From Rhodobacter capsulatus SB 1003 (lineage in GTDB: Bacteria > Pseudomonadota > Alphaproteobacteria > Rhodobacterales > Rhodobacteraceae), in the NCBI RefSeq assembly GCF_000021865.1, contig NC_014034.1:2220001-2252000 (forward strand): DNA of 32,000 bases. The letters are read 5' to 3'. The translations under genes and the position numbers were made by a program. The notes beneath the pieces were generated by a model. That model saw nothing but the letters and a program-made list of their open reading frames with translations. It ran no database searches and had not been told where the DNA came from. This document shows positions 7,365 to 20,456 of the stretch, piece by piece; positions within the stretch are counted from its first letter, which is position 1, and the number at the start of each line of letters is the position of its first letter.

Positions 7365-9542
7365 ATGACACATGCGCTTTCGCCCCGCCAACAGGAAGAC
7401 ATCGCCCTCGGCTCGCCGCAGATGACGGCGCTGCGGGGCCTGTTCCTGATCTGCCTGCACCACGGCGTCACCCTGCCGGTCACCGAAATCCCCGCGCTGG
7501 AAGAGGGCTCCATCGCCCCCCGGCTTGAAGCGACCTTTCAGCGCGCGGGCTTTCGCAGCCGCCAGATCAGCGGCGGCACTTGGCGCACGGCGAAGGGGCT
7601 CGGCTCGGCCTATCCGGCGCTGTGCGAGGGCAAGGACGGCCGCTGGTTCATCCTTGCCCATACCGTCGATCTGCCCGCCGGGCCGCATGCCGCCATCCTT
7701 GACCCCGCGCGCGAAGGCGAGGGCATCCTGTTCCTGCCGCAAGCGGAGTTCGAGGCGCGCTGGTCGGGGCGGCTGATCCTGGCGCGGCTGCGCAAGACCG
7801 AACTTTCGGCACGGCGTCCCTTTGGTCTGGGCTGGTTCATGCCGGCGCTGCTGGAGCAACGCGCGCTGTTTGGCGGCGTGGCGGTGGCGGTGGTGGCGGG
7901 CAACCTCATTGCCTTTGCCCTGCCCTTCCTGATGCAGGTGATGATTGACAGCGTGATTTCCTCGCATGCCTGGAACACGCTGGCGGCGGTGCTGTCGGTC
8001 TATGTGTTTCTGGTGCTGTTCGACGCGGCTTTCAGCTATGTGCGCCAGCGCCTGATGCAGATCTGCGGCGGGCGGCTCGATGCGCGGATCGGCGCGGCGG
8101 TGCATGCGCATCTGTTGTCGCTGCCCTTGTCGATGTTCGAGACGACGGCCGCGGGCGTTCTGGCCCGCAACATGCAACTGACTGAAAAGATAAGGCATTT
8201 TCTGGTCGGGCGGTTGTTTCAGACGATGCTGGATGCCGCGCTTTTGCCGGTTCTGCTGACGCTTCTGGCGCTTTTGTCGGGGCTGATGACGCTGGTCGTT
8301 CTGGGCTTTGCGCTGACCATCGCGGGGCTTCTGGCGGTGTTTTTGCCCGCGCTGCAGCGCCGTCTTTCGGCGCTTTACGACGCCGAGGCGGGGCGGCAGG
8401 CGCATCTGGTCGAGACGCTGCACAACATGCGCACGGTGAAGGCGCTGGTGCTGGAAGGCACGCGGCGCGGGCTTTGGGAAACCGCGCTGGCGCGCACGAT
8501 CCGCAGCCAGTGGCAGGTGGGGGAACTTTCCGCCACCGTCAGCGCGCTAACCTCGCTGATGGAGCGGCTGATGCAGGTCGCGGTGCTGGGCCTTGGCGCC
8601 GAACAGGTGCTCTCGGGGCAGATCAGCGTCGGCACTTTGGTCGCCTTCATGATGCTTTCGGGGCGGGTCACCGGCCCCCTGGTGCAGATCGTCGGGCTGA
8701 TCAACGAATGGCAGGAAGCGGCGCTGGCCGTGCGCACGCTCCGCGGCGTGATGGACCATCCGCCCGAACGCGGCCCCGAGGTGCGGCCGATCCGCCCGCC
8801 CCTGCGCGGGGCGATCCGGATCGAGGATCTGTGCTTCACCTATCCCGGCACCGCGACGCCCGCGCTCGATCATCTGACGCTCGACATCGCCGCCGGGCAG
8901 GTGATCGGCATTGTCGGGCGTTCGGGCTCGGGCAAGACGACGCTGACGCGGCTGCTGCAGGGCATCGGCTCGGCGCAATCGGGCCGCATCCTTTACGACG
9001 GCAATGACGCGCGCCACATCGACCTTGACCATCTGCGCCGTTCGGTCGGCATCGTGCTGCAGGAAAACGTGCTGTTCCGCGGCACCTTGCGCGAAAACAT
9101 CGCGCTCGCCCGTCCCGATGCCAGCCACGAGGCGGTGCTGCGCGCCGCGACGCTGGCGGGGGCGGCGGAATTCATCGACCGGCTGCCGCAGGGGCTCGAC
9201 ACCCCGGTCGAGGAAGGCGGGGCGAACCTTTCGGGCGGGCAACGGCAACGCATCGCGCTCGCGCGCGCGCTGCTCGCCGATCCGCCGATCCTGATCCTGG
9301 ACGAGGCGACCAGCGCGCTTGACCCCGAATCCGAGGCGGTGGTGAACCGCAACCTCGCCGCCATCGCGCAGGGGCGCACGGTGATCGTGGTCTCGCACCG
9401 GATGAGTTCGCTGGCGCATTCGGATGCGATCCTGGTGCTGGATCGCGGCCGGATCGAGGATTTCGCGCCCCATGCGGTGCTTCTGGCGCGCTCGCCGACC
9501 TATCGACATCTGTGGCTGCAACAGGCGGGGCAGACGGAATGA
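7365..9542 (+). CDS. Type I secretion system ABC transporter (HlyB family) with N-terminal C39-like domain
   Basis: 725 aa. The N-terminal region of about 140 aa resembles a C39 peptidase or C39-like domain. It is followed by a 6-TM ABC exporter domain. Walker A GRSGSGKTT, signature LSGGQRQRIALARA and Walker B ILILDEATSALD are present. The residue I align to the C39 catalytic Cys is Thr (QMTALRGLFLICLHHG), suggesting an inactive CLD as in HlyB. That alignment was done by eye. Confidence 0.9.
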   Translation: MTHALSPRQQEDIALGSPQMTALRGLFLICLHHGVTLPVTEIPALEEGSIAPRLEATFQRAGFRSRQISGGTWRTAKGLGSAYPALCEGKDGRWFILAHTVDLPAGPHAAILDPAREGEGILFLPQAEFEARWSGRLILARLRKTELSARRPFGLGWFMPALLEQRALFGGVAVAVVAGNLIAFALPFLMQVMIDSVISSHAWNTLAAVLSVYVFLVLFDAAFSYVRQRLMQICGGRLDARIGAAVHAHLLSLPLSMFETTAAGVLARNMQLTEKIRHFLVGRLFQTMLDAALLPVLLTLLALLSGLMTLVVLGFALTIAGLLAVFLPALQRRLSALYDAEAGRQAHLVETLHNMRTVKALVLEGTRRGLWETALARTIRSQWQVGELSATVSALTSLMERLMQVAVLGLGAEQVLSGQISVGTLVAFMMLSGRVTGPLVQIVGLINEWQEAALAVRTLRGVMDHPPERGPEVRPIRPPLRGAIRIEDLCFTYPGTATPALDHLTLDIAAGQVIGIVGRSGSGKTTLTRLLQGIGSAQSGRILYDGNDARHIDLDHLRRSVGIVLQENVLFRGTLRENIALARPDASHEAVLRAATLAGAAEFIDRLPQGLDTPVEEGGANLSGGQRQRIALARALLADPPILILDEATSALDPESEAVVNRNLAAIAQGRTVIVVSHRMSSLAHSDAILVLDRGRIEDFAPHAVLLARSPTYRHLWLQQAGQTE

Positions 9543-10855
9543 TCCAGCTTGGCTCCATCGACCGCGAGGCCATCGCCTTTCAGGAAGAGCTTGACCGGGT
9601 GCAGGTCGAGCCGGTGCCGGTGCTGTTGCGGCTCTGGCCGTTTCTGGCGGCGGCGCTGCTGGCGGGGCTCGTCGGGCTTGCCGCCTTCCTGCGCGTCGAT
9701 GTCGTGGTGACGGCCCCGGGCCAGCTGGCTGCGGCCGAACCGCCCCTGATGCTGCGCCCGGCCGCCAGCACCCGGCTTGACGCGCTTCTGGTGCGTCCGG
9801 GTGATGTGGTCGTGGCGGGGCAGCTGCTGGCGCGGCTCGATCCGACCCAGCCCGAGGCCGATCTGGCCGCGCTCGAGGCCGAACGCGATGCGCTTTCGGC
9901 CCGGATCGCGCGGCTGACGGCGGAACTTGAAGGCGGCGTGCTGGCCGAAACCGGCCCCGCGCTGGCCGCGGAAGCCGATGTGCTGACCGAGCGGCGGCTG
10001 GAAAGCCGCACCAAGGCCGAGGCGCTGCAGGCCGAGATCGCCTCGGCCGAGGCCCTGATCGAAGCGGAAACCCGCGATGGCGCGGGGCTGCGCGAGCAGC
10101 TCTCGATCCTGCGCGAGGTCGAGGCGATGCGCAACACCCTCGCCGAACGGCAGAGCGGCTCGCAACTGGCGGTGCTCGATGCGCGGCTGATGCGGCTGCG
10201 CGCCGAGGCCGATCAGCGCGCCCATGAAAGCCGCCTGGCCGAATTGCGCGACCGCCGCGACCGCGCCATCGCCGAACATCGGATGTTCCTGACCAGCCTG
10301 AAACGCACCGCGAGCGAGCAGCTGGCGGAAGCCGGGCCGCGGCTGCAGGTCGTCGAGGAGCAGATCGCCAAGGCCCGCGCGCTGCGGGAAATGGCCGATC
10401 TGGTCGCCCCCCGTCCGGGCGTGGTGCTGCGCGTCGCCGAGGGCGGCGTCGGCAGCCTGATCCCGGCGGGCAATCCGGTGGTGGTTCTGGTGCCAACCGA
10501 TGTGCCGCTTCTGGCCGAGATCGGGCTGCGCTCGACCGATGCCGGGCGGGTGGTCGCGGGCGATCCGGTCTCGATCAAGATCGACGCCTTTCCCTGGCGC
10601 GAACACGGCCAGCTGACCGGCTCCCTGACCGAGGTCGGCCATGCCAGCTACCGCGCGCAGGGCGCTTCGGAGGCGCAACACCCCGCCCATGTCGCGCTTG
10701 ATCCCGCCGCGGTGCTGGAGAACCTGCCGCCCGCGGCGACGCTGCTGCCCGGCATGACGCTTTCGGCCGAGATCCACACCGGCACCCGGTCGGTTCTCTC
10801 CACCTTCTTCGAGCCGATCCTGCGCGGACTGGCCGAAGCGCTGCGCGATCCGTGA
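9539..10855 (+). CDS. HlyD-family type I secretion membrane fusion protein
   Basis: ATG at 9539 overlaps the ABC stop codon (ATGA), indicating translational coupling. It has one N-terminal TM segment, a long Ala/Glu/Arg/Leu-rich coiled-coil region (RIARLTAELE..., ALQAEIASAEALIEAE...) and a C-terminal beta-barrel-like region. This architecture and the gene order match HlyB-HlyD. Confidence 0.85.
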   Translation: MIQLGSIDREAIAFQEELDRVQVEPVPVLLRLWPFLAAALLAGLVGLAAFLRVDVVVTAPGQLAAAEPPLMLRPAASTRLDALLVRPGDVVVAGQLLARLDPTQPEADLAALEAERDALSARIARLTAELEGGVLAETGPALAAEADVLTERRLESRTKAEALQAEIASAEALIEAETRDGAGLREQLSILREVEAMRNTLAERQSGSQLAVLDARLMRLRAEADQRAHESRLAELRDRRDRAIAEHRMFLTSLKRTASEQLAEAGPRLQVVEEQIAKARALREMADLVAPRPGVVLRVAEGGVGSLIPAGNPVVVLVPTDVPLLAEIGLRSTDAGRVVAGDPVSIKIDAFPWREHGQLTGSLTEVGHASYRAQGASEAQHPAHVALDPAAVLENLPPAATLLPGMTLSAEIHTGTRSVLSTFFEPILRGLAEALRDP

Positions 10856-10905
10856 TCGCGATGACCCTTTCCCCCGTTTCAGATCGCCCCATGAAGGAGA
10901 ATCCC

Positions 10906-11514
10906 ATGACCGACGCGACCCCGATCGAAACCGCCGATGCGGTGCCGATGACCGCAACCAGGACCGTGCTGCATGTCGGCTGCGGGGTTGCCCATCCGGC
11001 GAAACTGCCCGAGGCCTATTTTCCGCTCTCCGACTGGCGCGAGGTGCGGCTTGACATCGATCCCGACGTCGCCCCCGATATCGTCGCCAGCCTGACCGAC
11101 ATGTCGGCCGTCGCCGATGCCAGCGTCGATGCGGTCTGGTCGTCGCACAATCTGGAACATCTGGCGCCGCATGAAGTTCCGGTGGCGCTGGCCGAATTCA
11201 TCCGGGTGCTGAAACCGGGCGGTTTCGCGCTGGTGACCATGCCCGATCTTCAACAGGTCGCGACGCTGGTGGCCGAGGGGCAGCTTGAAGAGCCCGCCTA
11301 CATGTCGAGCCTCGGCCCGATCTCGCCGCTCGACATCCTTTACGGCTATCGTCCCGCGCTGGCCGAGGGCAACATCTTCATGGGGCACCGCACCGGCTTC
11401 ACCGCCCGGTCGCTGCGCGAGCACCTGACCCGTGCCGGTTTCGCCGGGGTGACCGTCGAACGCGACGGCCGCTTCGCGCTCTGGGGGGTCGGCACCCGGC
11501 TCGCCACGGCCTGA
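10906..11514 (+). CDS. Class I SAM-dependent methyltransferase (Methyltransf_11-like), third gene of the T1SS operon
   Basis: ATG at 10906 is preceded by AAGGAGA with 5-nt spacing. VLHVGCG (motif I), D at the end of beta-2 (RLDIDP) and VLKPGGFALV (post-motif) are typical of the Rossmann methyltransferase fold. It lies 50 nt downstream of the MFP on the same strand. Confidence 0.8.
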   Translation: MTDATPIETADAVPMTATRTVLHVGCGVAHPAKLPEAYFPLSDWREVRLDIDPDVAPDIVASLTDMSAVADASVDAVWSSHNLEHLAPHEVPVALAEFIRVLKPGGFALVTMPDLQQVATLVAEGQLEEPAYMSSLGPISPLDILYGYRPALAEGNIFMGHRTGFTARSLREHLTRAGFAGVTVERDGRFALWGVGTRLATA

Positions 11515-11660: not shown

Positions 11661-11684
11661 CGGGGCTTCCAGACGGAAGCCCCG
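11661..11684. terminator. GC-rich hairpin (10-bp stem, AGAC loop)
   Basis: CGGGGCTTCC-AGAC-GGAAGCCCCG in the convergent intergenic region between the methyltransferase and the octad-repeat gene. Confidence 0.4.
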
Positions 11685-11735: not shown

Positions 11736-14507
11736 TCAGAGCAGCAGGGCCGAGCGCTGTTCGTCGCTCAGATAGCCAAGCTGGGTCGTGCTGAACGCCG
11801 CCACCTGGACCGAGGTCAGCGCCGCGAGATCCGCCGTTTCCATCGCGCCGAGCATCCCGGCATCAAGCCCGGCCAGCTGGGCAGTGGTCAGGCCGATGAC
11901 CTGCTTGGTGCCCAGCGCGGCAACGGCGCCCGCGGTCAGCTCGTTCAGCGACGCGATCGACATCGCCCCGATCTGCGCGCTCGTGAGGTTGGCGATCTGC
12001 GCCGTGGTGAAGCCCGCCCCCTGTTCCGAGGTCAGCGCCGCCAGCTGGACCGTGGTCAGGGCCTTCACCGCGGTGGAGCTCAGCGCGCCGAAGTCCTGGC
12101 TTTCAAGCGCACCGATCTGGGCCGTCGACAGCGTCGCCACCTGCGTGGCCGACAGCGTCGCCGCCTGCGCCGTGGTCAGGGCGTCGATCTGCCCCGTGCT
12201 CAGCGCGGTGATCTGGGTCGAGCTCAGCCCCTTGATCGCAGCCGTCGAGAGCGCGGCGAAATCCGCCGTCTGCAGCGCGGAGATCTGCGCCGTGCTGAGC
12301 GCCGCCACCTGCGTCGAGCTCAGCGCGGCGGCCTGACCGGTCGTCAGCGCCACGATGTCATCGGTGCCGAGCCCCGCCAGAGCCGCCGCCCCGAGCGCCT
12401 TGACCTGCGCCGTGGTCAGAACGGTGTTGATCTGCGTCGTGGTCAGGCCGGTCAGCTGCGCCGAACCGAGAACCGCGACCTGCGCCGTCGTCATCTTCGC
12501 CAGCGTGGCATTGGCCAGCGCGGCGATATCGGCGCTCTCCAGCCCCTTGATCGCCGCCGTGGTGATCTGCGCGATCTGATCGGTGCCGATCGCCCCCGCC
12601 TGCGCCGTGGTCAGCGCCGTGATCTGCGTCGACGAGAAGCCCTTGAAGGTCGCGGCCGAGAGCTTGGCAAGATCGGCCGTCTCCATCGCCGCAACCAGCG
12701 AGGTGCTCAGCGCGGCGATCTGGCTCGAGCTGAGCGCCGGTGCCTGGGTGGTGGTCAGCGCCACGATGTCGGCGGTTTCAAGGCCAAGAATGTTGCTTGC
12801 CGTCAGACCCTTGATCTGCGCCGTGCCAAGCGCCGCGATCTGCGCCGTGGTCATGGCGCGGATCTGCGAGGAGCTGAGCGCGGCGATCTGGGCCGAGGTC
12901 AGCGCCTGCGCTTCGGCCGTGGTCAGCCCCGCCATGTCGGCCGTGCTGAGCCCCTTGACCGCCGCGGTCGAGAGCAAGCCGATCTGGGTCGAGGTCAGCG
13001 CCCCCGCCTGCGCATCGGACAGCGCCGCGATCTGCGCCGAGGTCAGGCCCTTGACCGCCGTGGTGGTCAGGCTGGCGATATCCGCGCTTTCGATTCCGCC
13101 GACCTGGCCGGTCGTCATCGTCGCGATCTGCGCCGAGGTCAGACCGCCGATCTGCGTCGCCGTGAACGCCGTCATGTCCGCCGCGGAAAGCCCCTTGATC
13201 CCGGCGGTCGAGAGCAGGCCGATCTGCGTCGAGGTCAACTGGCCCAGCTGGGTCGTGGTCAGCGCATTGACCTGAACCGAGCCGAGGCCCTTGATCGCGC
13301 CGGTGCTCAGATCATCGATGGCGCCGGTGGCGATCGCCGCGATCTGACCCGTGCTCATGGCGGCCAGATGCTTGTCGGTCAGGCCCTTGACCTGCGCCGT
13401 GGTCAGGGCGGCAACGGTGGCGGTGGCGACACCGACGACACCGGTGGCGCTGATCGCGGCAATCTGCGTCGAGCTCAGCCCGGCCACGGTCGCGGTGCTC
13501 AGGCCCTGCAGCTGCGTCGAGGAGAGCGCGGCCAGCTGCGCGGTGGTCAGCGCGGCAACCTCGGTCGAGGTCAGGTTGGTGCTCAGATCCGCCGAGGAGA
13601 GGCCCTTGACGGCGGTGGCGCTGAGGTTGGCGATCTGCGCCGTGGTCAGCTCGCCGACCTGCGCGTCGGTCAGCCCACTCACCTGCGCCGAGCCGAGCCC
13701 CTTCACCGCAGCGGTGGTCAGGCTGGCAATCGCGGTGCTGGCGATGTCGTCGATCTGCGTCGAGGTCAGCGCGGCCACCTGTTTCGAGGAGAGCGCCGCC
13801 ACCCGCGCGGTGTCAAGCGCCCCGAGGAAGCCCGAGGTCAGACCGGCGACCGAGGTCGCGTTCAGCGCGGCCACCTGCGCCGTGCTCAGCAGCGGCGCCT
13901 GCGTCGAGGTCAGATCGTCGAGCTGCGTCGAGGTCAGCGCGCCGATTTGCGCGGTGGAGAAACCGGCAAGCTGCGCCGAGGTGAAGGCGGCCAGTTCGTT
14001 CGCTTCCAGCCCCCGCACCGCCCCGGTGGTGAGGCCCGCAAGCTGTTCGGCCGTCAGCGCGGCGGCCGCGGCGCTGGTCAGCGCGGTGACCTGCGCCGAG
14101 GACAGGCCGGCGATGCCGGTGGCGGTCAGGCCCGCGATGACGGTCGTGGTGACGTTGGGGAGCTGCGTGGTGGTCAGCGCGGCAAGCTGCGTCGAGGTCA
14201 GGACCGCGGCCTGATCGGAGCTCAGCGCGCCGAGCGCGGCGCCGCTCAGCCCCTTGATGCCCGCGGTGGTCAGCACCGCGATCTGGGTGCCCAGCAGCGC
14301 CGGAACCTGGGTCGCGGTCAGCCCCGCAACCTGCGTCGAGGTCAGAACGCGCAGGTTTGCCGTGCCAAGCACCGGCAGCTGATCGGTGGTCAGCGCCCCG
14401 AGCTGGGCGGAAGACATCGAGGCGACATCCGCCGTCGTGAGAGCCGCGATTGCCGCCGTCTCCAGCGCGGCAATCTGGGTCGTCGTCATATTGGAAATGG
14501 CCGTCAT
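11736..14507 (-). CDS. Octapeptide-repeat protein: 923 aa made of 114 consecutive 8-residue repeats (consensus T-[TS]-[AT]-Q-[IVL]-[AG]-[AG]-L); function unknown
   Basis: The 958-aa ORF has a TTG at 14612. I place the start at ATG 14507 (MTAISNM...) because third-position GC drops sharply in the 35 codons upstream and a GGGAA lies about 8 nt before this ATG. An alternative ATG lies near 14590. After 7 residues the whole protein is octads down to ...SDEQRSALLL*. There is no signal peptide, no Cys or Trp, and very few charged residues. GC3 is very high throughout. Confidence 0.85.
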   Translation of the reverse strand: MTAISNMTTTQIAALETAAIAALTTADVASMSSAQLGALTTDQLPVLGTANLRVLTSTQVAGLTATQVPALLGTQIAVLTTAGIKGLSGAALGALSSDQAAVLTSTQLAALTTTQLPNVTTTVIAGLTATGIAGLSSAQVTALTSAAAAALTAEQLAGLTTGAVRGLEANELAAFTSAQLAGFSTAQIGALTSTQLDDLTSTQAPLLSTAQVAALNATSVAGLTSGFLGALDTARVAALSSKQVAALTSTQIDDIASTAIASLTTAAVKGLGSAQVSGLTDAQVGELTTAQIANLSATAVKGLSSADLSTNLTSTEVAALTTAQLAALSSTQLQGLSTATVAGLSSTQIAAISATGVVGVATATVAALTTAQVKGLTDKHLAAMSTGQIAAIATGAIDDLSTGAIKGLGSVQVNALTTTQLGQLTSTQIGLLSTAGIKGLSAADMTAFTATQIGGLTSAQIATMTTGQVGGIESADIASLTTTAVKGLTSAQIAALSDAQAGALTSTQIGLLSTAAVKGLSTADMAGLTTAEAQALTSAQIAALSSSQIRAMTTAQIAALGTAQIKGLTASNILGLETADIVALTTTQAPALSSSQIAALSTSLVAAMETADLAKLSAATFKGFSSTQITALTTAQAGAIGTDQIAQITTAAIKGLESADIAALANATLAKMTTAQVAVLGSAQLTGLTTTQINTVLTTAQVKALGAAALAGLGTDDIVALTTGQAAALSSTQVAALSTAQISALQTADFAALSTAAIKGLSSTQITALSTGQIDALTTAQAATLSATQVATLSTAQIGALESQDFGALSSTAVKALTTVQLAALTSEQGAGFTTAQIANLTSAQIGAMSIASLNELTAGAVAALGTKQVIGLTTAQLAGLDAGMLGAMETADLAALTSVQVAAFSTTQLGYLSDEQRSALLL

Positions 14508-14789
14508 GGTAGGTTCCCGGGTTGAAGGATCAACAAACTGCTCCACCGGGGCGTTCCCCCGACAGGCATCGGCCAGTTCTCGGCCACACATGACACCGGA
14601 CGATGCGCGCAAGCGGTTACAGAGCCGTTAAATCCGCCCCTTCCGGGCCCTCGGACCCCGGGAAAATTAGCTCGAATTCAATTCAACCCGGGCTTTGGCG
14701 CCCGAAACCGGGCCGCGTTTACCGCGGATTTACCTTGCGATGCGAGGCTTGCGCCGAGGCCTCTGCGAAGGTCGGCATCCAGAAGGAGT

Positions 14790-16649
14790 TTGCCCTTGCC
14801 ATCCGTCGTTCCGTTCCTGCCCCTGCCCGGCGACACCCAGACGATCGCTGCGGCGCTGCACCAGCCCGGCGGTTTCACGGCCCAGGGCGATCTGGCACCG
14901 CATCTGGCGCGCGCGGTGGCGGCGCTCGGGATCGAGGGGCTGGTCAGCATCGGCGAGGCCGCGGCTCCGGCGCAGGGGGTGGCGCTTTACCGCGCCTGGC
15001 TCTTGCAGCACGGCCAGAAAGGGGACTCGGCGGCGGCCTGGTACAATCTCGGTGTCGCGCTGCAGCGGATGGGCAAACATGCCGAGGCCACGGCGGCGCT
15101 TGAGACCGCGCAAAGGTTGCGGCCGGGCCTGTGGCAGGCCGGTCTCGGCCGCGGGCTGGCCTTCGAGGCGGCGGGCGCCCCCGACAGCGCGCTCAGCGTC
15201 TGGCGCGAGCTTCTGCCCCCCGCCGAGGCGCGACGGCAGATCCACATCCAGCTGGCGCGGCTTCTGGAAGACCGCGGCCGTCTGGGCGAGGCGATCGAAG
15301 AAGCACGGGCGGCGCTCCTGATCGACCCCGACCAGCCCGACGTGATCCAGCATCTGGTGCACAACCGTCAGCGCACCACCACCTGGCCGGTGACCGAGGT
15401 CGCGGTGCCCGGCATTTCCGAGGAGCTGGCGGCGCGGCATGCGGGCCCTCTCGCGGCGCTGGCGCTGGTCGACGATCCGGCGCGGCAGGCCGAGATCTGC
15501 GCCAGCTGGATCGGCCGCAAACTGCCCGCGGCACCGCAGCTTCTGGCGCCTGCGGGCGGCTATGCCCATGACCGCGTGCGCATCGGCTATCTGTCGTCGG
15601 ATTTCTGCCGCCATGCGATGAGCTATCTGATCGCCGAGTTGCTGGAACGCCATGACCGCACCCGCTTCGAGATCTGGGGCTATGATGCCACCCGCGACGA
15701 TGGCAGCGACGTGCGCGCCCGGGTTCTGGCGGCGCTCGACCATCACGTCCCGATCCAGGACATGACCGACGAGGCCGCCGCCGCGCGCATCCGCGCCGAT
15801 GAGATCGACATCCTGATCGATCTGAACGGGCTGACCAAGGGCGCGCGTCCGGCGATCTTGCGGGCGAAACCGGCGCCGATGCAGGTCACCTATCTGGGCT
15901 ATATCGGCCCGGTGCCGCTGCCCGAACTCGATTATCTGCTGTGCGACGCGGTCACCGTGCCGCCCGGGGCCGAGGCCGATTACAGCCCCCGCCCGCTGCG
16001 GATCGCGGGCTGCTATCAGGCCAATGACGGTGTCATGCCGCAGCTGCCCGCCGTCACCCGCGCCGAGGAAGGCCTGCCCGAGGATGCCGTGGTCTTCACC
16101 TGCGTCTCGCATCATTACAAGCTGACCGAGGCGGTCTGGGGCGCCTGGTGCCGCATCGTCGCCCGGGTGCCCGGTTCGGTGCTCTGGATCATCGACGACA
16201 ACCCGGAGTCGCGCGCGGCGCTGACGGCGCGCTGGGGTGCGGCGGGGCTGGCGCCCGAACGGCTGATCTTTGCCGCCCGCACCGACCCCGCCCGCTACCG
16301 CGCCCGGCTGGCCTTGGCCGATCTTTTCCTCGACACCACGCCCTACAACGCGGGCACGATCGCCTCGGATGCCTTGCGGATGGGGCTGCCGCTGATCACC
16401 ACGCGCGGCCGGGCCTTTGCCGCGCGGATGGGGGCAAGCCTGCTTACCGCGATCGGCCTGCCCGACTGCATCGCCGAGGATCTGGCGGGCTACGAGGATC
16501 TGGCGGTGGCGATCGGAACCGATCCGGCGCGGCTTGGGGCGCTCAAGGCGCATCTGGCGACCGGCGCCTGGGAACGCACGCTGGGCGATGCCGAGGATTT
16601 CACCCGCCGCTTCGAAGCTGCGCTGCTGGCGGGCCGGGCCGCGCTCTGA
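14790..16649 (+). CDS. TPR-containing GT41-family glycosyltransferase (O-GlcNAc transferase / SPINDLY-like)
   Basis: 619 aa. TTG start at 14790, or at 14796 with better spacing from GAAGGAG at 14783-14788. The N-terminus has about 3 TPR-like units (AAWYNLGVALQRMGKHAEATAALETAQRLRP...). The catalytic region aligns by eye with human OGT: RIGYLSSDFCRHAMSYLI vs RVGYVSSDFGNHPTSHLM, LIDLNGLTKGARPAILRAKPAPMQVTYLGY vs [30 protein letters not shown], and PGSVLWII...DLFLDTTPYNAGTIASDALRMGLPLIT vs PNSVLWLL...[27 protein letters not shown]. Confidence 0.9.
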   Translation: MPLPSVVPFLPLPGDTQTIAAALHQPGGFTAQGDLAPHLARAVAALGIEGLVSIGEAAAPAQGVALYRAWLLQHGQKGDSAAAWYNLGVALQRMGKHAEATAALETAQRLRPGLWQAGLGRGLAFEAAGAPDSALSVWRELLPPAEARRQIHIQLARLLEDRGRLGEAIEEARAALLIDPDQPDVIQHLVHNRQRTTTWPVTEVAVPGISEELAARHAGPLAALALVDDPARQAEICASWIGRKLPAAPQLLAPAGGYAHDRVRIGYLSSDFCRHAMSYLIAELLERHDRTRFEIWGYDATRDDGSDVRARVLAALDHHVPIQDMTDEAAAARIRADEIDILIDLNGLTKGARPAILRAKPAPMQVTYLGYIGPVPLPELDYLLCDAVTVPPGAEADYSPRPLRIAGCYQANDGVMPQLPAVTRAEEGLPEDAVVFTCVSHHYKLTEAVWGAWCRIVARVPGSVLWIIDDNPESRAALTARWGAAGLAPERLIFAARTDPARYRARLALADLFLDTTPYNAGTIASDALRMGLPLITTRGRAFAARMGASLLTAIGLPDCIAEDLAGYEDLAVAIGTDPARLGALKAHLATGAWERTLGDAEDFTRRFEAALLAGRAAL

Positions 16650-16756: not shown

Positions 16757-16778
16757 TGCTTCCTGTATTCAGGAAGCA
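16757..16778 (+). promoter_or_regulatory. Perfect 9-bp inverted repeat overlapping the RBS and start codon of the arsR-arsC fusion gene (candidate operator or RBS-sequestering hairpin)
   Basis: TGCTTCCTG-TATT-CAGGAAGCA. The right arm contains the AGGAAG Shine-Dalgarno, and its last A is the A of ATG 16778. Confidence 0.4.
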
Positions 16779-17623
16779 TGGAAAACACTTGCCCCACCCC
16801 CGAGGCCGCCGCGGCCTTTGCCTGTCTTGGCCATCCCGGTCGCCTGTCGGTGTTCCGGATGCTCATGCGCTTTGCGCCGCAGGGCGTGCGGCCCACCGAA
16901 ATCGCCGCGGCGCTGGGGCTGAAGCCAAACACCCTCTCGCATCATCTGGCGGATCTGACTGCTTGCGGGCTGGTCACAGTCACCCGGCAGGGGCGGTCGC
17001 TTTTCTACGCCGTCGATCTTCACAAAACCGAATCCCTGATCGGCTATCTCGCCCTCGATCTGGGCCGGGCCCGGCCCGACCTGATGCCCAAAGCTCTTCA
17101 TGAAAAGGCAAATCCCATGCCCGACACGCCCTTCAACGTGCTTTTCATCTGCTCGGGCAATTCCGCCCGCTCGATCTTTGCCGAGGCGCTCCTGCGCGAT
17201 CTGGGCGCGGGCAAGTTCACCGCCCATTCCGCCGGAACGCGGCCCGGGACCGCGATCAACCCTTTCGCGCTCGAGGTGCTGAGCCGCAACGGCCATGACA
17301 CCGGGGGCCTGCGCGCCAAGCATCTGTCGGAGTTCCAGGGCCCCGCCGCGCCGCAGATGGAGTTCGTCTTCACCGTCTGCGATACGGCGGCGGCCGAGGA
17401 CTGCCCGCCCTGGCCCGGTCAGCCGATCACCGGCCATTGGGGCCTGCCCGATCCGGTCAAGGCCACCGGCACCGAGGCCGAACGCGCGCTGGTTTTCGCC
17501 CAGACCTACGGGGCGCTGCGCCGCCGCATTGCCGCCTTTGTCGACCTGCCCTTTGCCACGCTCGACCGGCTGGCGCTGCAAACCCGCGTCGATGCGATCG
17601 GCGCCCTGCCCGAAAAGGCCTGA
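16778..17623 (+). CDS. ArsR/SmtB-family HTH regulator fused in frame to an LMW-PTP-type (thioredoxin-coupled) arsenate reductase ArsC
   Basis: ATG 16778 follows an AGGAAG RBS. The upstream part of the 491-aa ORF overlaps the GT41 gene and is rejected. The N-terminal half has a winged-helix ArsR-like region (LGHPGRLSVFRML...PTEIAAALGLKPNTLSHHLADLTACGLV...GRSLFY). The C-terminal half has the CX5R P-loop FICSGNSARS and a distal Cys pair VCDTAAAEDCP. No stop codon separates the two halves. Confidence 0.8.
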   Translation: MENTCPTPEAAAAFACLGHPGRLSVFRMLMRFAPQGVRPTEIAAALGLKPNTLSHHLADLTACGLVTVTRQGRSLFYAVDLHKTESLIGYLALDLGRARPDLMPKALHEKANPMPDTPFNVLFICSGNSARSIFAEALLRDLGAGKFTAHSAGTRPGTAINPFALEVLSRNGHDTGGLRAKHLSEFQGPAAPQMEFVFTVCDTAAAEDCPPWPGQPITGHWGLPDPVKATGTEAERALVFAQTYGALRRRIAAFVDLPFATLDRLALQTRVDAIGALPEKA

Positions 17624-17626
17624 GCC

Positions 17627-18634
17627 ATGGCGAGACTTGCGATCAACGGCTTGGGCCGGATGGGAAAACTGCTCTTGCGGCGGCTCATCGATCTGGGGCG
17701 CGGGCCCGAGATCGTGCTTTTGAACGACGCCATGGGCGACGCCGAAACCCATGCGCTGCTGCTCGAGTTCGACACGGTGCATGGCCGCTGGCCGACCCCG
17801 GTTGCCGCCACCGAAACCGGGCTTCAGATCGCGGGGCAGCGCATCCGGCTGACGCGGGAAAAGACCCTTGAAGCCCTGCCCCTGGCCGAGATCGGGGTCG
17901 ATCTGGTGCTCGATTGCACCGGGCAGTTCAAGACCGCGGCCAAGGTCCAGCCCTATTTCGATGCAGGCGTGCGCAAGGTCGTCGTTTCGGCCCCGGTCAA
18001 GGATACGGGCGCGCTGAACCTCGTCTATGGCGTGAACCACGTGCTTTACGATGGCAGCCAGCGGCTGATCACGGCGGCGTCCTGCACCACCAACTGCCTG
18101 GCCCCCATCGTGAAGGTGATCCACGAAGCGCTTGGGATCAAACACGGATCCATCACCACACTGCATGACGTGACGAACACGCAAACGATCGTCGACCGCC
18201 CCGCGAAAGACCTGCGCCGGGCGCGGTCGGCGCTGATGAACCTCATTCCCACCACCACCGGCTCGGCCACGGCGATCACGCTGATCTATCCCGAGCTGAA
18301 AGGGCGGCTCAATGGCCATGCCGTCCGGGTGCCGCTTTTGAATGCCTCGCTGACCGATTGCGTCTTCGAACTTGACCGCCCGACCACGGTCGCAGAGGTG
18401 AACAGCCTTCTGCAGACCGCCGCCGAGGGAGGGCTGAACGGCATCCTCGGTTTCGAGACGCGGCCGCTGGTGTCGTCGGATTTCACCAACGACCCGCGCT
18501 CGGCGGTGATCGACGGCCCCTCGACGATGGTGGTCAATGGCACGCAGCTCAAGCTTTACGCCTGGTATGACAACGAATGGGGCTATGTCTGCCGGATGGC
18601 CGATATCGCCCGAATGGTGGCGGGGTCGTTGTGA
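17627..18634 (+). CDS. gap: Glyceraldehyde-3-phosphate dehydrogenase, ArsJ-associated type
   Basis: 335 aa. [11 protein letters not shown]-binding N-terminus and catalytic SCTTNCLAP are present. It starts 3 nt after the arsRC stop, and its stop overlaps the arsJ GTG start (GTGA). Confidence 0.9.
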
Positions 18635-19467
18635 GCGCCAATCCGATCCGCGCCTACGCTGCCGTCACCGCCGCCTATTGGGCCTTCATGCTCACCGATG
18701 GCGCGCTGCGGATGCTGGTGCTGTTGCAGTTCAACGGGCTGGGCTTCAGCCCGGTCGCGCTGGCCTGGCTGTTTCTGCTTTACGAAGTCGCGGGCATTGC
18801 CACCAATCTTGGCGCGGGCTGGCTGGCGGCGCGGTTCGGCCTGGCCGCCACGCTTTACGGCGGGCTTGGCCTGCAGGTCGCGGCGCTGGTCGCGCTGACG
18901 CAGCTGGACCCGGGCTGGTCGATCCCCGCCTCGGTCGCTTTCGTGATGGCGGTGCAGGGTGTCTCGGGCGTTGCCAAGGATCTGGCCAAGATGTCGTCGA
19001 AATCGGCGGTGAAACTGCTCGCCCCCAGCGGCGAGGGCGGGCTGTTTCGCTGGGTGGCGGCGCTGACCGGGTCAAAGAACGCGGTGAAGGGGCTCGGCTT
19101 CTTCCTTGGCGCGGCGCTTCTGGCGCTTGTCGGCTTCAAGCCGGCGATCTGGGGCATGGCGGGGCTTCTGGCGGCGATCCTGATCGCGGTCGTGGCCTTC
19201 CTGCCCAAGGGCCTGCCCGGGAAGATGAAATCCGACGAGGCCTGGGGCGGCTGGCGGTCGCAGGACCCGCAGGTGAACCGGCTTTCGCTGGCGCGGATGT
19301 TCCTTTTTGGCGCCCGCGATGTCTGGTTCGTCGTCGGGCTTCCGGTCTATTTCCAGGCGGTTCTCTCCGACGGCACCGCCGAGGGCCGCCGCGAGGCGTT
19401 CTTTCTGACCGGCGGTTTCATGGCGCTCTGGATCATCGCCTACGGCGCGGTGCAGGCCTTCGGGGGC
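18631..19467 (+). pseudogene. arsJ: arsJ (MFS organoarsenical / 1-arseno-3-phosphoglycerate efflux permease), 3'-truncated
   Basis: GTG 18631 starts (M)[40 protein letters not shown]...LFLLYE..., a typical ArsJ N-terminus. Membrane-like sequence stops after about 279 aa at ...WIIAYGAVQAFG. The ORF then reads through Arg-rich nonsense to 20205, antisense to an integrase remnant. Full-length ArsJ is about 400+ aa (from memory). The junction coordinate is approximate (plus or minus 15 nt). Confidence 0.7.
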
Positions 19468-20325
19468 AGCATTCGCAAGCACTCTCGCGCGGGTCTTCGT
19501 CAGCACGGCGGGCGGCAGCGGGTCGCGCTTCTCCGACGCCTTCTGTCCCTGTCCCTTCGCCACCCGCGCCACGGGCAAGCGGCTGAACGGGTTCGGCATC
19601 GTGTCGGGCATCCCGAACTCGACCTTGGCGAAGTTGACCACGGCGGACAGGATCGCCAACTCCCGCGACACCGTTGCCGCGCTGACCTTCGTCCCTGTCC
19701 CTTTGCCCGTCGCCTTCACCCGGTCAAGCATGTGATCGCGGACGGCGCGGGCGTCCTCTGGCGTGATGGCGGTCAACAGCGGATCGCGCCCGATGGCAGC
19801 GATTGCCGCCTCCACAACGCGGGTCGCAAGCCCCACAACGCGGCTGTCCGTCTCCGGGCTGTCCGCTTTCAGATGCTCTTTCAGATAGAGCCGCAGGGCG
19901 TCCCCCAAGGTCGGCTCCGGGGGCCTGCAGCGTTCCGGCCCAAGGCGCAGAAGGTTGACCGTGTGGCGATCCACCGGGGGCGCTCCGAGGGGTTCATAGC
20001 CCACTTGCGGGAAGCTCTCGGCCAGAGAATCGGCAGCGATTTCCAAGGCTTCCTCGGTCGCGCCACGCGCCACCAGATCGGCCCGACGCAGCCACCGCCC
20101 CGGCCATCCTTTTCTTCGCCGCCTCAATCTCGCGCTCCACCTGGGCGTGATACTGAGGACAGGCGGCAAGGGCTTCCTTCTGGGAATCGCCCGGCTTGCG
20201 CTTGAACTCGCGCTTGGGGATGACCTCGGAAACGTCCTTGGGAACCTGCGGCGGTATTGCCGGCTTCCCGATCTGGTTTGCTCAACGTGCTTCAAGACAA
20301 GCCCCGTATGTGCTCGAATGTGCAC
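19455..20325 (-). pseudogene. Phage/ICE-type tyrosine integrase remnant: N-terminal arm/core-binding part only, at least 2 frameshifts, catalytic domain missing
   Basis: Frame A gives ...SRQYRRR. A -1 shift near 20245 is then needed to read VPKDVSEVIPKREFKRKPGDSQKEALAACPQYHAQVEREIEAAKKR. A second shift at about 20080-20115 returns to ...ADLVARGATEEALEIAADSL...TLGDALRLYLKEHL...ITPEDARAVRDHMLDR...SAATVSRELAILSAVVNFA...DPLPPAVL. These are typical of integrase N-terminal and SAM-like domains. No R-K-H-R-H-Y catalytic region follows. The remnant lies directly next to the 3' end of a tRNA gene. Confidence 0.65.
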
Positions 20326-20382
20326 CGGAAGGGACGCAAGGGCCAGAAGATATTGAGAAATTTGACCCTAATAGGGTTCAGT

Positions 20383-20456
20383 TGGAGCGGGTGAAGGGAA
20401 TCGAACCCTCGTCATCAGCTTGGGAAGCTGCGGCTCTACCATTGAGCTACACCCGC
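20383..20456 (-). tRNA. tRNA-Gly (anticodon CCC), CCA encoded
   Basis: Reverse complement: GCGGGTG-TA-GCTC-AATGGTA-GAGC-C-GCAGC-TTCCCAA-GCTGA-TGAC-GAGGG-TTCGATT-CCCTT-CACCCGC-TCCA. This gives a 7-bp acceptor stem, D and T arms with GTTCGATTC, and anticodon loop TT-CCC-AA. There is one G:A mismatch at the top of the anticodon stem. Confidence 0.85.

What the first reader, a model, noticed from the sequence alone, without database searches (positions are those of the whole stretch)
14508..16649. Eukaryote-like O-GlcNAc transferase homologue divergently paired with a Thr/Ser-rich repeat protein
The 619-aa protein aligns by eye over both catalytic lobes with human OGT (motifs listed in the feature) but has only about 3 TPR units.

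Its nearest neighbour, transcribed divergently from a shared 282-bp region, is a protein in which roughly a quarter of residues are Ser/Thr at fixed repeat positions. That neighbour also contains several N-x-S/T sequons (NMT, NVT, NAT x2, NLS, NLT x2 by eye).

Bacterial GT41 members are either O-GlcNAc-type enzymes or HMW1C-like N-glycosyltransferases, and their natural substrates are mostly unknown. A genetically paired, highly regular candidate substrate would be useful.
Basis: partly seen in the sequence, partly recalled or inferred. Interest (0 to 1): 0.7.

Follow-up and report, generated by a model that had tools for sequence, protein, structure and literature searches.

The report
Sugar-adding enzyme paired with secreted repeat protein
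A bacterial relative of the human O-GlcNAc transferase sits in a conserved gene cassette beside a giant threonine-rich repeat protein, a methyltransferase and a dedicated export pump, which gives this enzyme class, whose native bacterial targets are mostly unknown, a directly testable natural substrate.

Summary
Positions 14790-16649 (+) encode a TPR + GT41 glycosyltransferase, nearest XcOGT and human OGT, with no HMW1C match. The gene at 11736-14507 (-), 282 bp away and divergent, encodes a 923-aa protein of about 115 octads (L-[T/S]-[T/S]-A-Q-[I/V]-A-A). This is the Pfam ALTTAQ repeat, and the protein is 25.9% Ser+Thr.

The pairing is not chance. In 47 of 49 related genomic loci with enough flank, a GT41 orthologue lies next to an ALTTAQ protein. 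A type I secretion ABC transporter, a HlyD adaptor and a SAM methyltransferase usually accompany them, and all three are in this window at 7365-11514. Gene order and orientation vary between lineages, but the adjacency is kept.

Best explanation (confidence about 0.55): the GT41 O-glycosylates the octad Thr/Ser in the cytoplasm, the methyltransferase modifies the product, and the type I system exports it.

The sugar is probably not GlcNAc. The donor-selecting residue is Tyr rather than the Cys of human OGT, and some cassettes carry UDP-xylose synthase. N-glycosylation at sequons is not supported.

The literature searches found no description of this cassette. I rate it a new variant of the "dedicated glycosyltransferase plus secreted repeat protein" theme. 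Glycosylation itself is untested.

The parts
7365..9542 (+). Type I secretion ABC transporter (HlyB type) with an N-terminal C39-like domain that appears to lack the catalytic Cys
   Evidence: Pfam ABC_membrane and ABC_tran. E. coli HlyB is the best solved match, E 4e-122 over residues 82-717. NCBIfam TIGR01846 scores 557 bits, below its 725-bit cut-off. The N-terminal 178 aa score 22.3 bits against Peptidase_C39, cut-off 22. Sequence read. An orthologue accompanies the GT41 in 37 loci.
9512..10855 (+). HlyD-family type I secretion adaptor (membrane fusion protein)
   Evidence: NCBIfam TIGR01843 scores 228.7 bits, above its 208.65 cut-off. Pfam HlyD_3. An orthologue is present in 47 of the GT41 loci.
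10852..11514 (+). Class I SAM-dependent methyltransferase; its start overlaps the HlyD stop by 4 nt, so it is co-operonic with the secretion genes
   Evidence: Pfam Methyltransf_11, E 2e-11. The only solved-structure matches are weak (E 3e-4) and are two sugar O-methyltransferases, 3bus and 6uv6. An orthologue at 59-72% identity is present in 35 GT41 loci.
11661..11684 (-). Terminator-like hairpin (10-bp stem, 8 G-C pairs, then TTTTCC) just after the stop of the repeat-protein gene
   Evidence: Consensus scan. This is a pattern match only.
11736..14507 (-). 923-aa ALTTAQ-repeat protein: about 115 octads L-[T/S]-[T/S]-A-Q-[I/V]-A-A from residue 7 to the C-terminus. It has no Cys or Trp, is acidic, and has no N-terminal signal peptide or RTX repeats. 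It is the candidate acceptor substrate and type I secretion cargo.
   Evidence: PF20080 at E 1e-169 with 31 matches. Composition and register. The 24-nt period is seen by TRF. The C-terminal motif is conserved in orthologues. AF2 gives one short helix per octad, pLDDT 90 with an in-window pseudo-alignment.
14508..14789 (.). 282-bp divergent intergenic region shared by the repeat-protein gene and the GT41 gene
   Evidence: Sequence read. No sigma-70-like promoter was found by the simple scan.
14790..16649 (+). TPR + GT41 glycosyltransferase (619 aa as listed; probable start TTG 14796, 617 aa)
15030..15374 (+). TPR region of the GT41 protein (residues 81-195)
   Evidence: Pfam TPR matches. It aligns with human OGT TPRs 11-13 and with the XcOGT TPRs.
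15558..16622 (+). GT-B catalytic domain (residues 257-611). His275, Lys444, Thr523 and Asp527 are kept. Tyr519 sits at the human OGT Cys917 position.
   Evidence: Residue-by-residue alignments. Invariance across 13 orthologues. The catalytic domain alone matches XcOGT at 1.3e-58.

Best explanation
The window carries a five-gene cassette for making and exporting a glycosylated repeat protein.

The ALTTAQ protein (11736-14507, minus strand) is made in the cytoplasm without a Sec signal. The TPR-GT41 enzyme (14790-16649) binds the unfolded octad repeats and transfers a sugar from a nucleotide-sugar donor onto the Thr/Ser hydroxyls at octad positions 2-4. This could give up to hundreds of sites per molecule. 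The donor is probably not UDP-GlcNAc and may be a smaller sugar.

The SAM methyltransferase (10852-11514), co-operonic with the secretion genes, then methylates the product. The likeliest target is the sugar.

The modified chain is exported through the HlyB-type ABC transporter and HlyD adaptor (7365-10855), using a conserved C-terminal signal. Outside the cell it folds into a long solenoid of one short helix per octad and forms a surface or matrix fibre.

**Shown:** the homologies, the repeat architecture and the conserved linkage.

**Inferred:** the acceptor identity, the O-linkage and its sites, the donor sugar, the methyl acceptor, export by this type I system, and the extracellular role.
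For: **Linkage, forward direction.** Eighty genomic loci encode GT41 orthologues at 52-96% identity. An ALTTAQ gene lies within 2.6 kb in 70 of them, and in 47 of 49 with at least 3 kb on both sides. HlyD is present in 47 loci, the ABC transporter in 37 and the methyltransferase in 35, counts limited by contig ends.

**Rearrangement without loss of adjacency.** The secretion genes lie left of the repeat gene here and right of the GT41 in L006 and L039. The repeat gene is divergent in 53 loci and co-directional in 15.

**Independent lineage.** In L083 a 1208-aa protein combining a C39-like domain, TPRs and GT41 (35% identical, E 1e-86) sits divergently beside an ALTTAQ protein. That locus also has an FkbM methyltransferase, a second glycosyltransferase, a C39-ABC transporter and HlyD.

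**Reverse direction.** Of 76 metagenomic ALTTAQ loci, 23 carry a GT41 homologue at 29-62% identity in the DNA held.

**Enzyme looks active.** The counterparts of human OGT H558, K842, T921 and D925 (His275, Lys444, Thr523, Asp527) are invariant in 13 orthologues. K842 and D925 mutants of human OGT are inactive (PMC2556091).

**Enzyme and substrate co-vary.** The 27 loci with a second tandem GT41 paralogue have Ser/Thr at octad position 4 in 76% of octads, against 11% elsewhere. Ser+Thr is 29.8-33.2% against 20.4-27.0%.

**Sugar metabolism in the cassette.** UDP-xylose synthase (E 3e-128 to human UXS1) is present in 6 GT41 loci and 2 further ALTTAQ loci. FkbM methyltransferases are present in 12 GT41 loci and one metagenomic ALTTAQ locus. 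Another sugar epimerase/dehydratase lies beside the GT41 in L010 and L016.

**Secretion cargo features.** The protein has no signal peptide, Cys or Trp and is acidic. The C-terminus '...TxQIGAMTTAQxNALF[LATV]' is conserved across families. HlyB is the best solved match of the ABC transporter.
Against: - There is no direct evidence that the repeat protein carries any glycan or is secreted.

- The Thr/Ser positions have a purely structural reading. L-T-x-x-Q-I fits a hydrophobic-staple plus capping-box helix start (my reading of the sequence), and AF2 places one short helix per octad.

- ALTTAQ proteins with no GT41 nearby keep Ser/Thr at positions 2-3.

- The link is not universal in reverse. 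Five of six diverse ALTTAQ proteins on long contigs have no GT41 within 10 kb. Five metagenomic relatives with at least 2.5 kb on both sides have none.

- Two orthologue loci with full flanks lack an ALTTAQ gene (L031, L065).

- Several donor-contacting residues differ from human OGT: T560M, Q839H, K898P, H901Y, H920G and T922I. K898A inactivates human OGT, so activity and donor are uncertain.

- I know of no established precedent for a heavily glycosylated chain passing a type I secretion channel (own knowledge).

- The window also encodes an RTX metalloprotease (1700-5074) that could use the same exporter.

- Many of the 80 loci are related, so the counts are not independent events.
Confidence: 0.55

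Rival explanations
1. The GT41 glycosylates something other than the repeat protein. Candidates are a component or regulator of the secretion system, or many cytoplasmic proteins in an O-GlcNAc-like regulatory role. On this view the adjacency reflects co-regulation only.
For: The best-studied bacterial relative, XcOGT, is not beside any repeat protein. It lies directly downstream of hemA-prfA in Xanthomonas and Stenotrophomonas. GT41 enzymes of this type therefore do have other contexts. Two orthologue loci lack an ALTTAQ gene.
Against: The adjacency to the ALTTAQ gene survives rearrangements that move the secretion genes to the other side or out of the held DNA. A 35%-identical GT41 in another lineage is again next to an ALTTAQ protein. 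Gaining a second GT41 coincides with an extra Thr per octad.
Confidence: 0.15
2. The TPR-GT41 protein acts mainly as a holdase or targeting factor. It would keep the long repeat protein unfolded and hand it to the exporter, without transferring sugar to it.
For: TPR domains bind extended peptides. In L083 the GT41 is fused to a C39-like domain of the kind type I ABC transporters use to bind substrates (the role of that domain is from established knowledge of HlyB). Several human OGT donor-binding residues are replaced.
Against: The catalytic Lys, His, Thr and Asp, and the whole '...DTxPYNAGTIASDAL' loop, are invariant across orthologues. That is not expected for a dead enzyme. Nucleotide-sugar enzymes and methyltransferases travel with the cassette.
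Confidence: 0.08
3. The GT41, methyltransferase and sugar-nucleotide enzymes build a non-protein glycoconjugate that is made or exported together with the repeat protein.
For: UDP-xylose synthase, an additional glycosyltransferase and FkbM methyltransferases occur in some cassettes. Such genes are also typical of polysaccharide loci (own knowledge).
Against: All characterised GT41 members modify proteins (PMC9715652 and own knowledge). The TPR array fits a protein acceptor. No polysaccharide polymerase, flippase or export genes were seen among the conserved cassette genes.
Confidence: 0.07
4. HMW1C-like N-glycosylation: the enzyme puts hexoses on Asn in the N-x-S/T sequons of the repeat protein.
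For: The window protein has seven sequons against about 3.4 expected from composition.
Against: No HMW1C/NGT structure matches the catalytic domain even at E <= 10. The enzyme has TPRs like OGT. Sequons arise automatically when Asn sits two residues before the octad Thr. They number 0-20 in orthologues, and five orthologues have none.
Confidence: 0.03
5. The pairing is a chance neighbourhood with no functional meaning.
For: The genes to the right of the GT41 are an unrelated, strain-variable arsenic-resistance island.
Against: Forty-seven of 49 loci with adequate flanks keep the pairing across two orders of Alphaproteobacteria and several gene orders. Twenty-three of 76 ALTTAQ loci have a GT41, although GT41 genes are rare in genomes (rarity is own knowledge).
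Confidence: 0.01

Closest known systems
XcOGT (Xanthomonas campestris XCC0866) and TtOGT: bacterial OGT-type GT41 enzymes with short TPR arrays
   Same: The architecture is the same: about 3 TPRs plus TPR-like repeats, then a GT-B catalytic domain without the metazoan intervening domain. XcOGT is the best match of the catalytic domain (E 1.3e-58). Both have Tyr at the human OGT Cys917 position, Tyr463 in XcOGT and Tyr519 here.
   Different: XcOGT sits downstream of hemA-prfA, with no repeat protein or type I secretion genes nearby. It has His466 and Thr where this enzyme has Gly522 and Ile524. The native substrates of XcOGT and TtOGT are unknown (PMC9715652). This clade has a conserved neighbour as a candidate substrate.
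HMW1C / NGT with HMW1 adhesin (Haemophilus, Actinobacillus, Kingella)
   Same: A GT41 enzyme is encoded beside a large secreted adhesin. It modifies that adhesin at many sites in the cytoplasm before export (PMC3983070, PMC4550697 abstracts).
   Different: That system makes N-linkages to Asn in sequons. It has no TPRs, belongs to a different GT41 clade and exports by two-partner or autotransporter secretion. Here there is no sequence match to HMW1C, the sequons are not conserved and export is by a type I system.
Serine-rich repeat glycoproteins (GspB, Fap1) with GtfA/GtfB and the accessory Sec system
   Same: The logic is the same. A very long Ser/Thr-rich repeat protein is O-glycosylated in the cytoplasm by dedicated transferases, further modified (O-acetylation there, methylation proposed here) and then exported by a dedicated transporter encoded in the same locus (PMC5578698 abstract).
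   Different: That system is Gram-positive, uses GT4-type GtfA/B and exports through SecA2/SecY2. Its repeats are thought to be disordered (own knowledge). Here the enzyme is GT41, export is by type I secretion and the octads are predicted to fold into a helical solenoid.
Autotransporter heptosyltransferases (AAH, TibC) with AIDA-I and TibA
   Same: A dedicated cytoplasmic O-glycosyltransferase is encoded next to a repeat-rich secreted adhesin and modifies many Ser/Thr residues (PMC3835316 abstract; enzyme details from own knowledge).
   Different: The enzyme family, the sugar (heptose) and the export route (type V secretion) all differ.
Glycocin systems (for example SunS with the SunT C39-ABC exporter)
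   Same: A cytoplasmic glycosyltransferase modifies a peptide that a C39-domain ABC transporter in the same cluster then exports (own knowledge). The L083 variant even fuses a C39-like domain to the GT41.
   Different: Those cargoes are small peptides with double-glycine leaders, the transferase is GT2 and only one or two sites are modified.
Giant type I-secreted adhesins (LapA, SiiE) and RTX proteins
   Same: These are very large, acidic, Cys-free repeat proteins exported by an HlyB/HlyD-type system encoded nearby (own knowledge). HlyB is the best solved match of the ABC transporter here.
   Different: The ALTTAQ protein has no RTX nonapeptides or Ig-like repeats. No glycosyltransferase partner is known for those adhesins.

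Membership tests
GT41 (Pfam PF13844), OGT/SPY-type | Sequence match to the family model above its curated threshold | tested here: met
   225.1 bits against a cut-off of 25, E 1.6e-66.
GT41 (Pfam PF13844), OGT/SPY-type | TPR array directly followed by a two-lobed GT-B catalytic domain | tested here: met
   Residues 81-590 align end to end with XcOGT 23-534. Both lobes align with human OGT.
GT41 (Pfam PF13844), OGT/SPY-type | Catalytic and nucleotide-binding residues: human OGT H558, K842, T921, D925 | tested here: met
   His275, Lys444, Thr523 and Asp527 are invariant in 13 orthologues.
Protein O-GlcNAc transferase (UDP-GlcNAc donor) | Donor pocket of human OGT: T560, Q839, K898, H901, small residue C917, H920, T922 | tested here: not met
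   The counterparts are Met277, His441, Pro500, Tyr503, Tyr519, Gly522 and Ile524. In SPY, Tyr at the C917 position clashes sterically with GlcNAc modelled from human OGT. Zhu et al. propose that this residue selects the donor (PMC9715652).
Protein O-GlcNAc transferase (UDP-GlcNAc donor) | Demonstrated transfer of GlcNAc to Ser/Thr | not testable with these tools
   This needs an enzyme assay.
Metazoan-type OGT | Intervening domain between the catalytic lobes and a long TPR array (about 11-13 repeats) | tested here: not met
   Human OGT residues 696-826 have no counterpart, and only about 3 TPRs are present.
HMW1C-like N-glycosyltransferase | Sequence relationship to HMW1C/NGT | tested here: not met
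   No HMW1C/NGT chain matches the catalytic domain at E <= 10.
HMW1C-like N-glycosyltransferase | Conserved N-x-S/T acceptor sequons in the partner protein | tested here: not met
   Orthologues have 0-20 sequons, and five have none.
ALTTAQ repeat proteins (Pfam PF20080) | Repeated matches to the family model | tested here: met
   31 matches, 550 bits against a cut-off of 26.4.
Type I secretion system (HlyB/HlyD type) | ABC transporter of the HlyB type with an N-terminal C39-like domain | tested here: inconclusive
   HlyB is the best solved match at E 4e-122. TIGR01846 scores 557 bits, below its 725-bit cut-off. The C39 match is at threshold, 22.3 bits against 22.
Type I secretion system (HlyB/HlyD type) | HlyD-family adaptor | tested here: met
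   TIGR01843 scores 228.7 bits, above its 208.65 cut-off.
Type I secretion system (HlyB/HlyD type) | TolC-like outer-membrane channel | not tested
   No such gene turned up among the window ORFs I scanned against Pfam, and positions 20500-32000 were not scanned. TolC-like channels are often encoded elsewhere (own knowledge).
Type I secretion substrate | No N-terminal signal peptide, uncleaved C-terminal signal, acidic and Cys-free | tested here: inconclusive
   Composition and the N-terminus fit, and the C-terminal motif is conserved. No secretion-signal predictor or experiment was available.
RTX proteins | Glycine-rich calcium-binding nonapeptide repeats | tested here: not met
   The repeat protein has no HemolysinCabind match. 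The separate protein at 1700-5074 has 16.

The most novel reading that the evidence does not exclude
A bacterial mucin-like fibre. Nearly every octad of a 0.9 to more than 3.3 thousand residue helical solenoid would carry an O-linked, possibly methylated, non-GlcNAc sugar such as xylose, installed by an OGT-type GT41. The glycosylated chain would then be threaded out through a type I secretion system. If true, this would be the first defined native substrate for the XcOGT-like bacterial GT41 enzymes, and the first glycoprotein cargo of a type I system that I know of.
Probability: 0.35. Interest if true: 0.8.

Novelty: new variant of a known kind. Interest (0 to 1): 0.65.

Why it matters
Bacterial OGT-type GT41 enzymes have been crystallised (XcOGT, TtOGT), but they show little or no activity on tested substrates and their native targets are unknown (PMC9715652). 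This cassette offers a conserved, extremely regular candidate acceptor, an eight-residue unit repeated over a hundred times. It occurs in a genetically tractable organism, apparently Rhodobacter capsulatus. Both acceptor specificity and donor choice therefore become directly testable with peptides.

It would also extend the theme of a dedicated cytoplasmic glycosyltransferase paired with a secreted repeat protein to type I secretion, beyond two-partner, autotransporter and accessory-Sec export. That raises the question of whether a type I channel can pass a glycosylated chain. Finally, it would give a first functional handle on the ALTTAQ repeat, a widespread repeat family for which the literature searches found nothing.

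Tried and rejected
1. **N-glycosylation at sequons.** Rejected. There is no HMW1C similarity and the sequons are not conserved.

2. **Does XcOGT share this context?** I rebuilt its sequence from the alignment and looked up its orthologues. It does not. It follows hemA-prfA.

3. **Is the methyltransferase homologous to the C-terminal part of the L083 fusion protein?** There is no significant similarity, so I make no gene-fusion argument for the methyltransferase.

4. **Is Ser/Thr at octad position 3 enriched only where a GT41 is nearby?** Three of five distant GT41-less proteins have low position-3 Ser/Thr. Closer relatives without a GT41 in the held DNA are as Thr-rich as those with one. The result is inconclusive to negative.

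5. **Fold comparison of the AF2 models with solved structures.** The best match is mesothelin (E 4e-4, TM 0.35, rmsd 10 A). This is too weak to call a relationship.

6. **All-against-all clustering of locus ORFs.** It timed out. I replaced it with representative-locus searches.

7. **Literature searches.** Terms covered ALTTAQ, PF20080, GT41 with type I secretion, Rhodobacter capsulatus with OGT or type I secretion, and related combinations. Nothing on this cassette was found. Subscription-only papers were not searched.

8. **Promoters.** The simple sigma-70 scan found none in the shared spacer.
Full report
**1. What is in the window**

The window is G+C-rich (62-74% in 1-kb bins, about 70% around the finding) with no compositional break at the finding. 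Its GT41 is 96% identical to those of two Rhodobacter capsulatus strains.

The genes around the finding are as follows.

| Coordinates | Strand | Product |
|---|---|---|
| 1700-5074 | - | RTX serralysin-like metalloprotease |
| 5274-7226 | - | P-type ATPase |
| 7365-9542 | + | HlyB-type ABC transporter |
| 9512-10855 | + | HlyD adaptor |
| 10852-11514 | + | Class I SAM methyltransferase; start overlaps the HlyD stop |
| 11736-14507 | - | 923-aa repeat protein |
| 14790-16649 | + | TPR-GT41 protein |
| 16778-17623 | + | ArsR-ArsC fusion |
| 17627-18634 | + | GAPDH |
| from 18577 | + | MFS transporter |
| 20383-20456 | - | tRNA-Gly |

**2. Check of the observation**

*GT41 protein.*
- It matches Pfam Glyco_transf_41 at E 1.6e-66 and has TPR matches at residues 81-113 and 151-189.
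- It aligns with human OGT over both catalytic lobes (E 9e-68).
- It aligns end to end with the bacterial enzyme XcOGT, residues 81-590 onto 23-534 (E 3e-63).
- The metazoan intervening domain is missing.
- The likely start is TTG 14796 rather than 14790. The AGGAG at 14783-14788 is too close to 14790, and the nearest homologues are 617 aa.

*Neighbour.*
- It starts at ATG 14507 on the other strand, leaving a 282-bp divergent spacer.
- It is 25.9% Ser+Thr and contains exactly the seven sequons listed.

**3. The repeat protein**

It is a nearly perfect array of about 115 eight-residue units, L-[T/S]-[T/S]-A-Q-[I/V]-A-A. The array runs from residue 7 to the last residue with only two one-residue register shifts.
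- Ser/Thr occupies position 2 in 73% of octads, position 3 in 80% and position 4 in 29%.
- Pfam recognises it as the ALTTAQ repeat (PF20080, 31 matches, E 1e-169).
- It has no Cys or Trp, few charged residues with a net acidic balance, no RTX repeats and no signal-peptide-like N-terminus.

*A structural reading of the Thr/Ser.* The motif L-T-x-x-Q-I is what a hydrophobic staple plus capping box at a helix start looks like. This is my reading of the sequence. AlphaFold2 agrees.
- A 240-residue segment folded alone gave one confident model of five (pLDDT 77).
- With a pseudo-alignment of 28 other segments of the same protein, all five models were confident (pLDDT 82-90, pTM 0.84).
- Both runs give one 4-6-residue helix per octad.
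- The pseudo-alignment comes from internal repeats, so this confidence should be read with care.
- No solved structure is close. Mesothelin is the best match, at TM 0.35.

The Thr/Ser at fixed positions therefore have a possible structural role independent of glycosylation.

**4. Is the pairing real?**

*Forward test.* I aligned 13 orthologues and fetched 80 genomic loci encoding relatives of the GT41 (52-96% identity) with up to 10 kb on each side.
- An ALTTAQ gene lies within 2.6 kb of the GT41 in 70 of 80 loci, and in 47 of 49 that hold at least 3 kb on both sides.
- Most of the ten misses are cut by contig ends. The clear exceptions are L031 and L065.
- The repeat proteins range from about 940 to more than 3,300 residues.
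- The same loci usually also carry orthologues of HlyD (47 loci), the ABC transporter (37) and the methyltransferase (35). Contig length limits these counts.

*Taxa.* The loci include Rhodobacter, Stagnihabitans, Pseudorhodobacter, Amaricoccus, Rhodovulum, Roseomonas, Falsiroseomonas, Neoroseomonas and Roseicella.

*Gene order varies.*
- In this window the secretion genes and methyltransferase lie to the left of the repeat gene.
- In L006 and L039 they lie to the right of the GT41.
- In the Acetobacteraceae a second GT41 paralogue sits between the repeat gene and the first GT41.
- The repeat gene is divergent in 53 loci and co-directional in 15.
- The RTX protease of this window is not conserved with the cassette, so the exporter belongs with the repeat protein.

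*Reverse test.* The link is weaker in this direction.
- Of six diverse ALTTAQ proteins on long contigs, only one has a GT41 within 10 kb.
- That case is informative. In L083 the neighbour is a 1208-aa fusion of a C39-like domain, TPRs and a GT41 only 35% identical to the window enzyme. It is accompanied by an FkbM methyltransferase, another glycosyltransferase, a C39-ABC transporter and HlyD.
- Of 76 metagenomic ALTTAQ loci, 23 hold a GT41 homologue (29-62% identity), even though the giant repeat gene fills much of the DNA held.
- Five relatives with at least 2.5 kb on both sides have none.

ALTTAQ repeats are thus used more widely, for instance fused to calpain-like proteases with a type I system but no GT41 in Buttiauxella. 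This GT41 clade, however, is almost always found beside one.

**5. The enzyme**

*Clade placement.* The catalytic domain alone matches solved structures as follows.

| Solved structure | E-value |
|---|---|
| XcOGT | 1.3e-58 |
| Human OGT | about 1e-52 |
| TtOGT | 3e-39 |
| Plant SPINDLY | 5e-36 |
| HMW1C/NGT | no match, even at E <= 10 |

The enzyme is OGT/SPY-type and closest to XcOGT.

*Conserved residues.* The counterparts of human OGT H558, K842, T921 and D925 are His275, Lys444, Thr523 and Asp527. All four are invariant in orthologues. K842 and D925 are needed for human OGT activity (PMC2556091).

*Changed donor-contacting residues*.

| Human OGT | Window enzyme |
|---|---|
| T560 | Met277 |
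| Q839 | His441 |
| K898 | Pro500 |
| H901 | Tyr503 |
| C917 | Tyr519 |
| H920 | Gly522 |
| T922 | Ile524 |

Zhu et al. showed that Tyr at the C917 position (Tyr744 of SPINDLY) clashes with GlcNAc. They proposed that this residue sets donor choice in GT41. They also noted that XcOGT (Tyr463) and TtOGT (Tyr419) show little or no O-GlcNAc transferase activity (PMC9715652). The name 'O-GlcNAc transferase' is therefore not justified for this enzyme, and a smaller sugar is more likely.

*Sugar-metabolism neighbours.*
- Six Acetobacteraceae cassettes and two further ALTTAQ loci encode a UDP-glucuronate decarboxylase, which makes UDP-xylose (E 3e-128 to human UXS1).
- Twelve GT41 loci and one metagenomic ALTTAQ locus encode an FkbM methyltransferase.
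- L010 and L016 have another sugar epimerase/dehydratase next to the GT41.
- None of these is in the present window, so the donor here remains open.

**6. A co-variation between enzyme and candidate substrate**

The 27 loci with a second GT41 paralogue differ from the rest in their repeat proteins.

| | Two GT41 genes | One GT41 gene |
|---|---|---|
| Ser/Thr at octad position 4 | 76% of octads | 11% of octads |
| Total Ser+Thr | 29.8-33.2% | 20.4-27.0% |

This is what co-evolution of enzyme and acceptor would give. All two-GT41 loci belong to one clade, so it counts as a single event.

**7. Secretion**

- The ABC transporter's best solved match is HlyB (E 4e-122).
- Its N-terminal 178 residues score at threshold for Peptidase_C39.
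- By comparison with the HlyB N-terminus as I recall it, the catalytic-Cys position is not Cys. It therefore resembles the non-proteolytic C39-like domain of RTX exporters. This step is inference.
- HlyD passes its curated NCBIfam threshold.
- The repeat proteins share a conserved C-terminus, '...ALETxDIAALTxxQVAGFTTTQIGAMTTAQxNALF[LATV]', across Rhodobacterales and Acetobacteraceae. This is where a type I secretion signal would lie.
- I did not find a TolC-like gene among the ORFs scanned.

**8. Mechanism, rivals and novelty**

*Best explanation (confidence 0.55).* The GT41 O-glycosylates the octad Thr/Ser of the unfolded repeat protein in the cytoplasm. The methyltransferase modifies the product. 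Its only solved-structure matches, weak at E 3e-4, are sugar O-methyltransferases. The type I system then exports the chain, which folds into a solenoid outside the cell.

*Rivals.*
- The GT41 acts on another acceptor (0.15).
- The GT41 works as a non-catalytic holdase or targeting factor (0.08).
- The enzymes build a non-protein glycoconjugate (0.07).
- HMW1C-like N-glycosylation at sequons (0.03).
- Chance neighbourhood (0.01).

*Closest known systems by logic.* These are HMW1C with HMW1, the serine-rich repeat glycoproteins with GtfA/B and accessory Sec, and the autotransporter heptosyltransferases. This cassette differs from each in enzyme clade, linkage or export route.

*Literature.* Searches found nothing on ALTTAQ repeats or on a GT41 coupled to type I secretion. 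A 2025 review of bacterial O-glycosylation mentions neither GT41 nor type I secretion.

*Verdict.* I rate it a new variant of a known kind, with interest 0.65.

**9. Limits**

- There is no experimental evidence for glycosylation or secretion.
- Locus counts depend on tblastn thresholds and contig ends, and include related genomes.
- The high-confidence structure model rests on a pseudo-alignment.
- Some residue roles and system comparisons rest on my own knowledge, as marked.

Noticed in passing
L163:8919-11707 and L164:8914-11701: XcOGT is the crystallised bacterial GT41 whose native substrate is unknown. It and its Stenotrophomonas orthologue lie directly downstream of hemA-prfA. The GT41 start overlaps the stop of the release factor 1 gene. 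In many bacteria this slot holds the release-factor methyltransferase prmC (own knowledge). This may hint at a link between XcOGT and translation termination.
   Followed up: no
L083:5298-8924 (minus strand): A 1208-aa protein fuses a C39-like peptidase domain, TPRs and a GT41 domain. It also has a weak methyltransferase-like match near residues 980-1056. It sits beside an ALTTAQ protein and a C39-ABC/HlyD exporter. The C39-like domain may dock the enzyme onto the secretion substrate.
   Followed up: partly
L065:1637-2605; L045:19689-20963; also L047, L048, L056, L063, L113, L118: A UDP-glucuronate decarboxylase (UDP-xylose synthase), E 3e-128 to human UXS1, lies inside some Acetobacteraceae versions of the cassette. 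This hints that xylose is a transferred sugar there.
   Followed up: partly
27 loci, e.g. L045:7812-9893 and L045:9878-11743: Acetobacteraceae cassettes carry two tandem GT41 paralogues. Their repeat proteins have a third Thr per octad: position 4 is Ser/Thr in 76% of octads against 11% elsewhere.
   Followed up: yes
window 1700-5074 (minus strand): A 1124-aa serralysin-like metalloprotease with 16 RTX calcium-binding repeat matches. It is a classical type I secretion substrate about 2.3 kb from the ABC/HlyD genes. It is not conserved with the cassette in other genomes.
   Followed up: partly
window 16778-20456: An arsenic-resistance set lies immediately right of the GT41: an ArsR-ArsC fusion, GAPDH and an MFS transporter. 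It ends near tRNA-Gly(CCC) at 20383-20456. ArsRC and GAPDH matches are weak or missing in other R. capsulatus strains (L002, L003), so this looks like a strain-variable island.
   Followed up: partly
L082:6237-16715: Buttiauxella gaviniae has three tandem calpain-like (Peptidase_C2) proteins. Two carry ALTTAQ repeats. They sit next to a C39-ABC/HlyD/OEP type I system with no GT41, so ALTTAQ repeats also serve as a module in secreted proteases.
   Followed up: no
L045:13415-16129: A PAS-GGDEF-EAL protein (cyclic-di-GMP turnover) lies between the methyltransferase and the secretion genes in the Falsiroseomonas tokyonensis cassette. This may link the fibre to biofilm regulation.
   Followed up: no
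window 14790-14798: The listed TTG start at 14790 is one base from the AGGAG at 14783-14788. The TTG at 14796 has normal spacing and gives the 617-aa length of the nearest homologues.
   Followed up: yes
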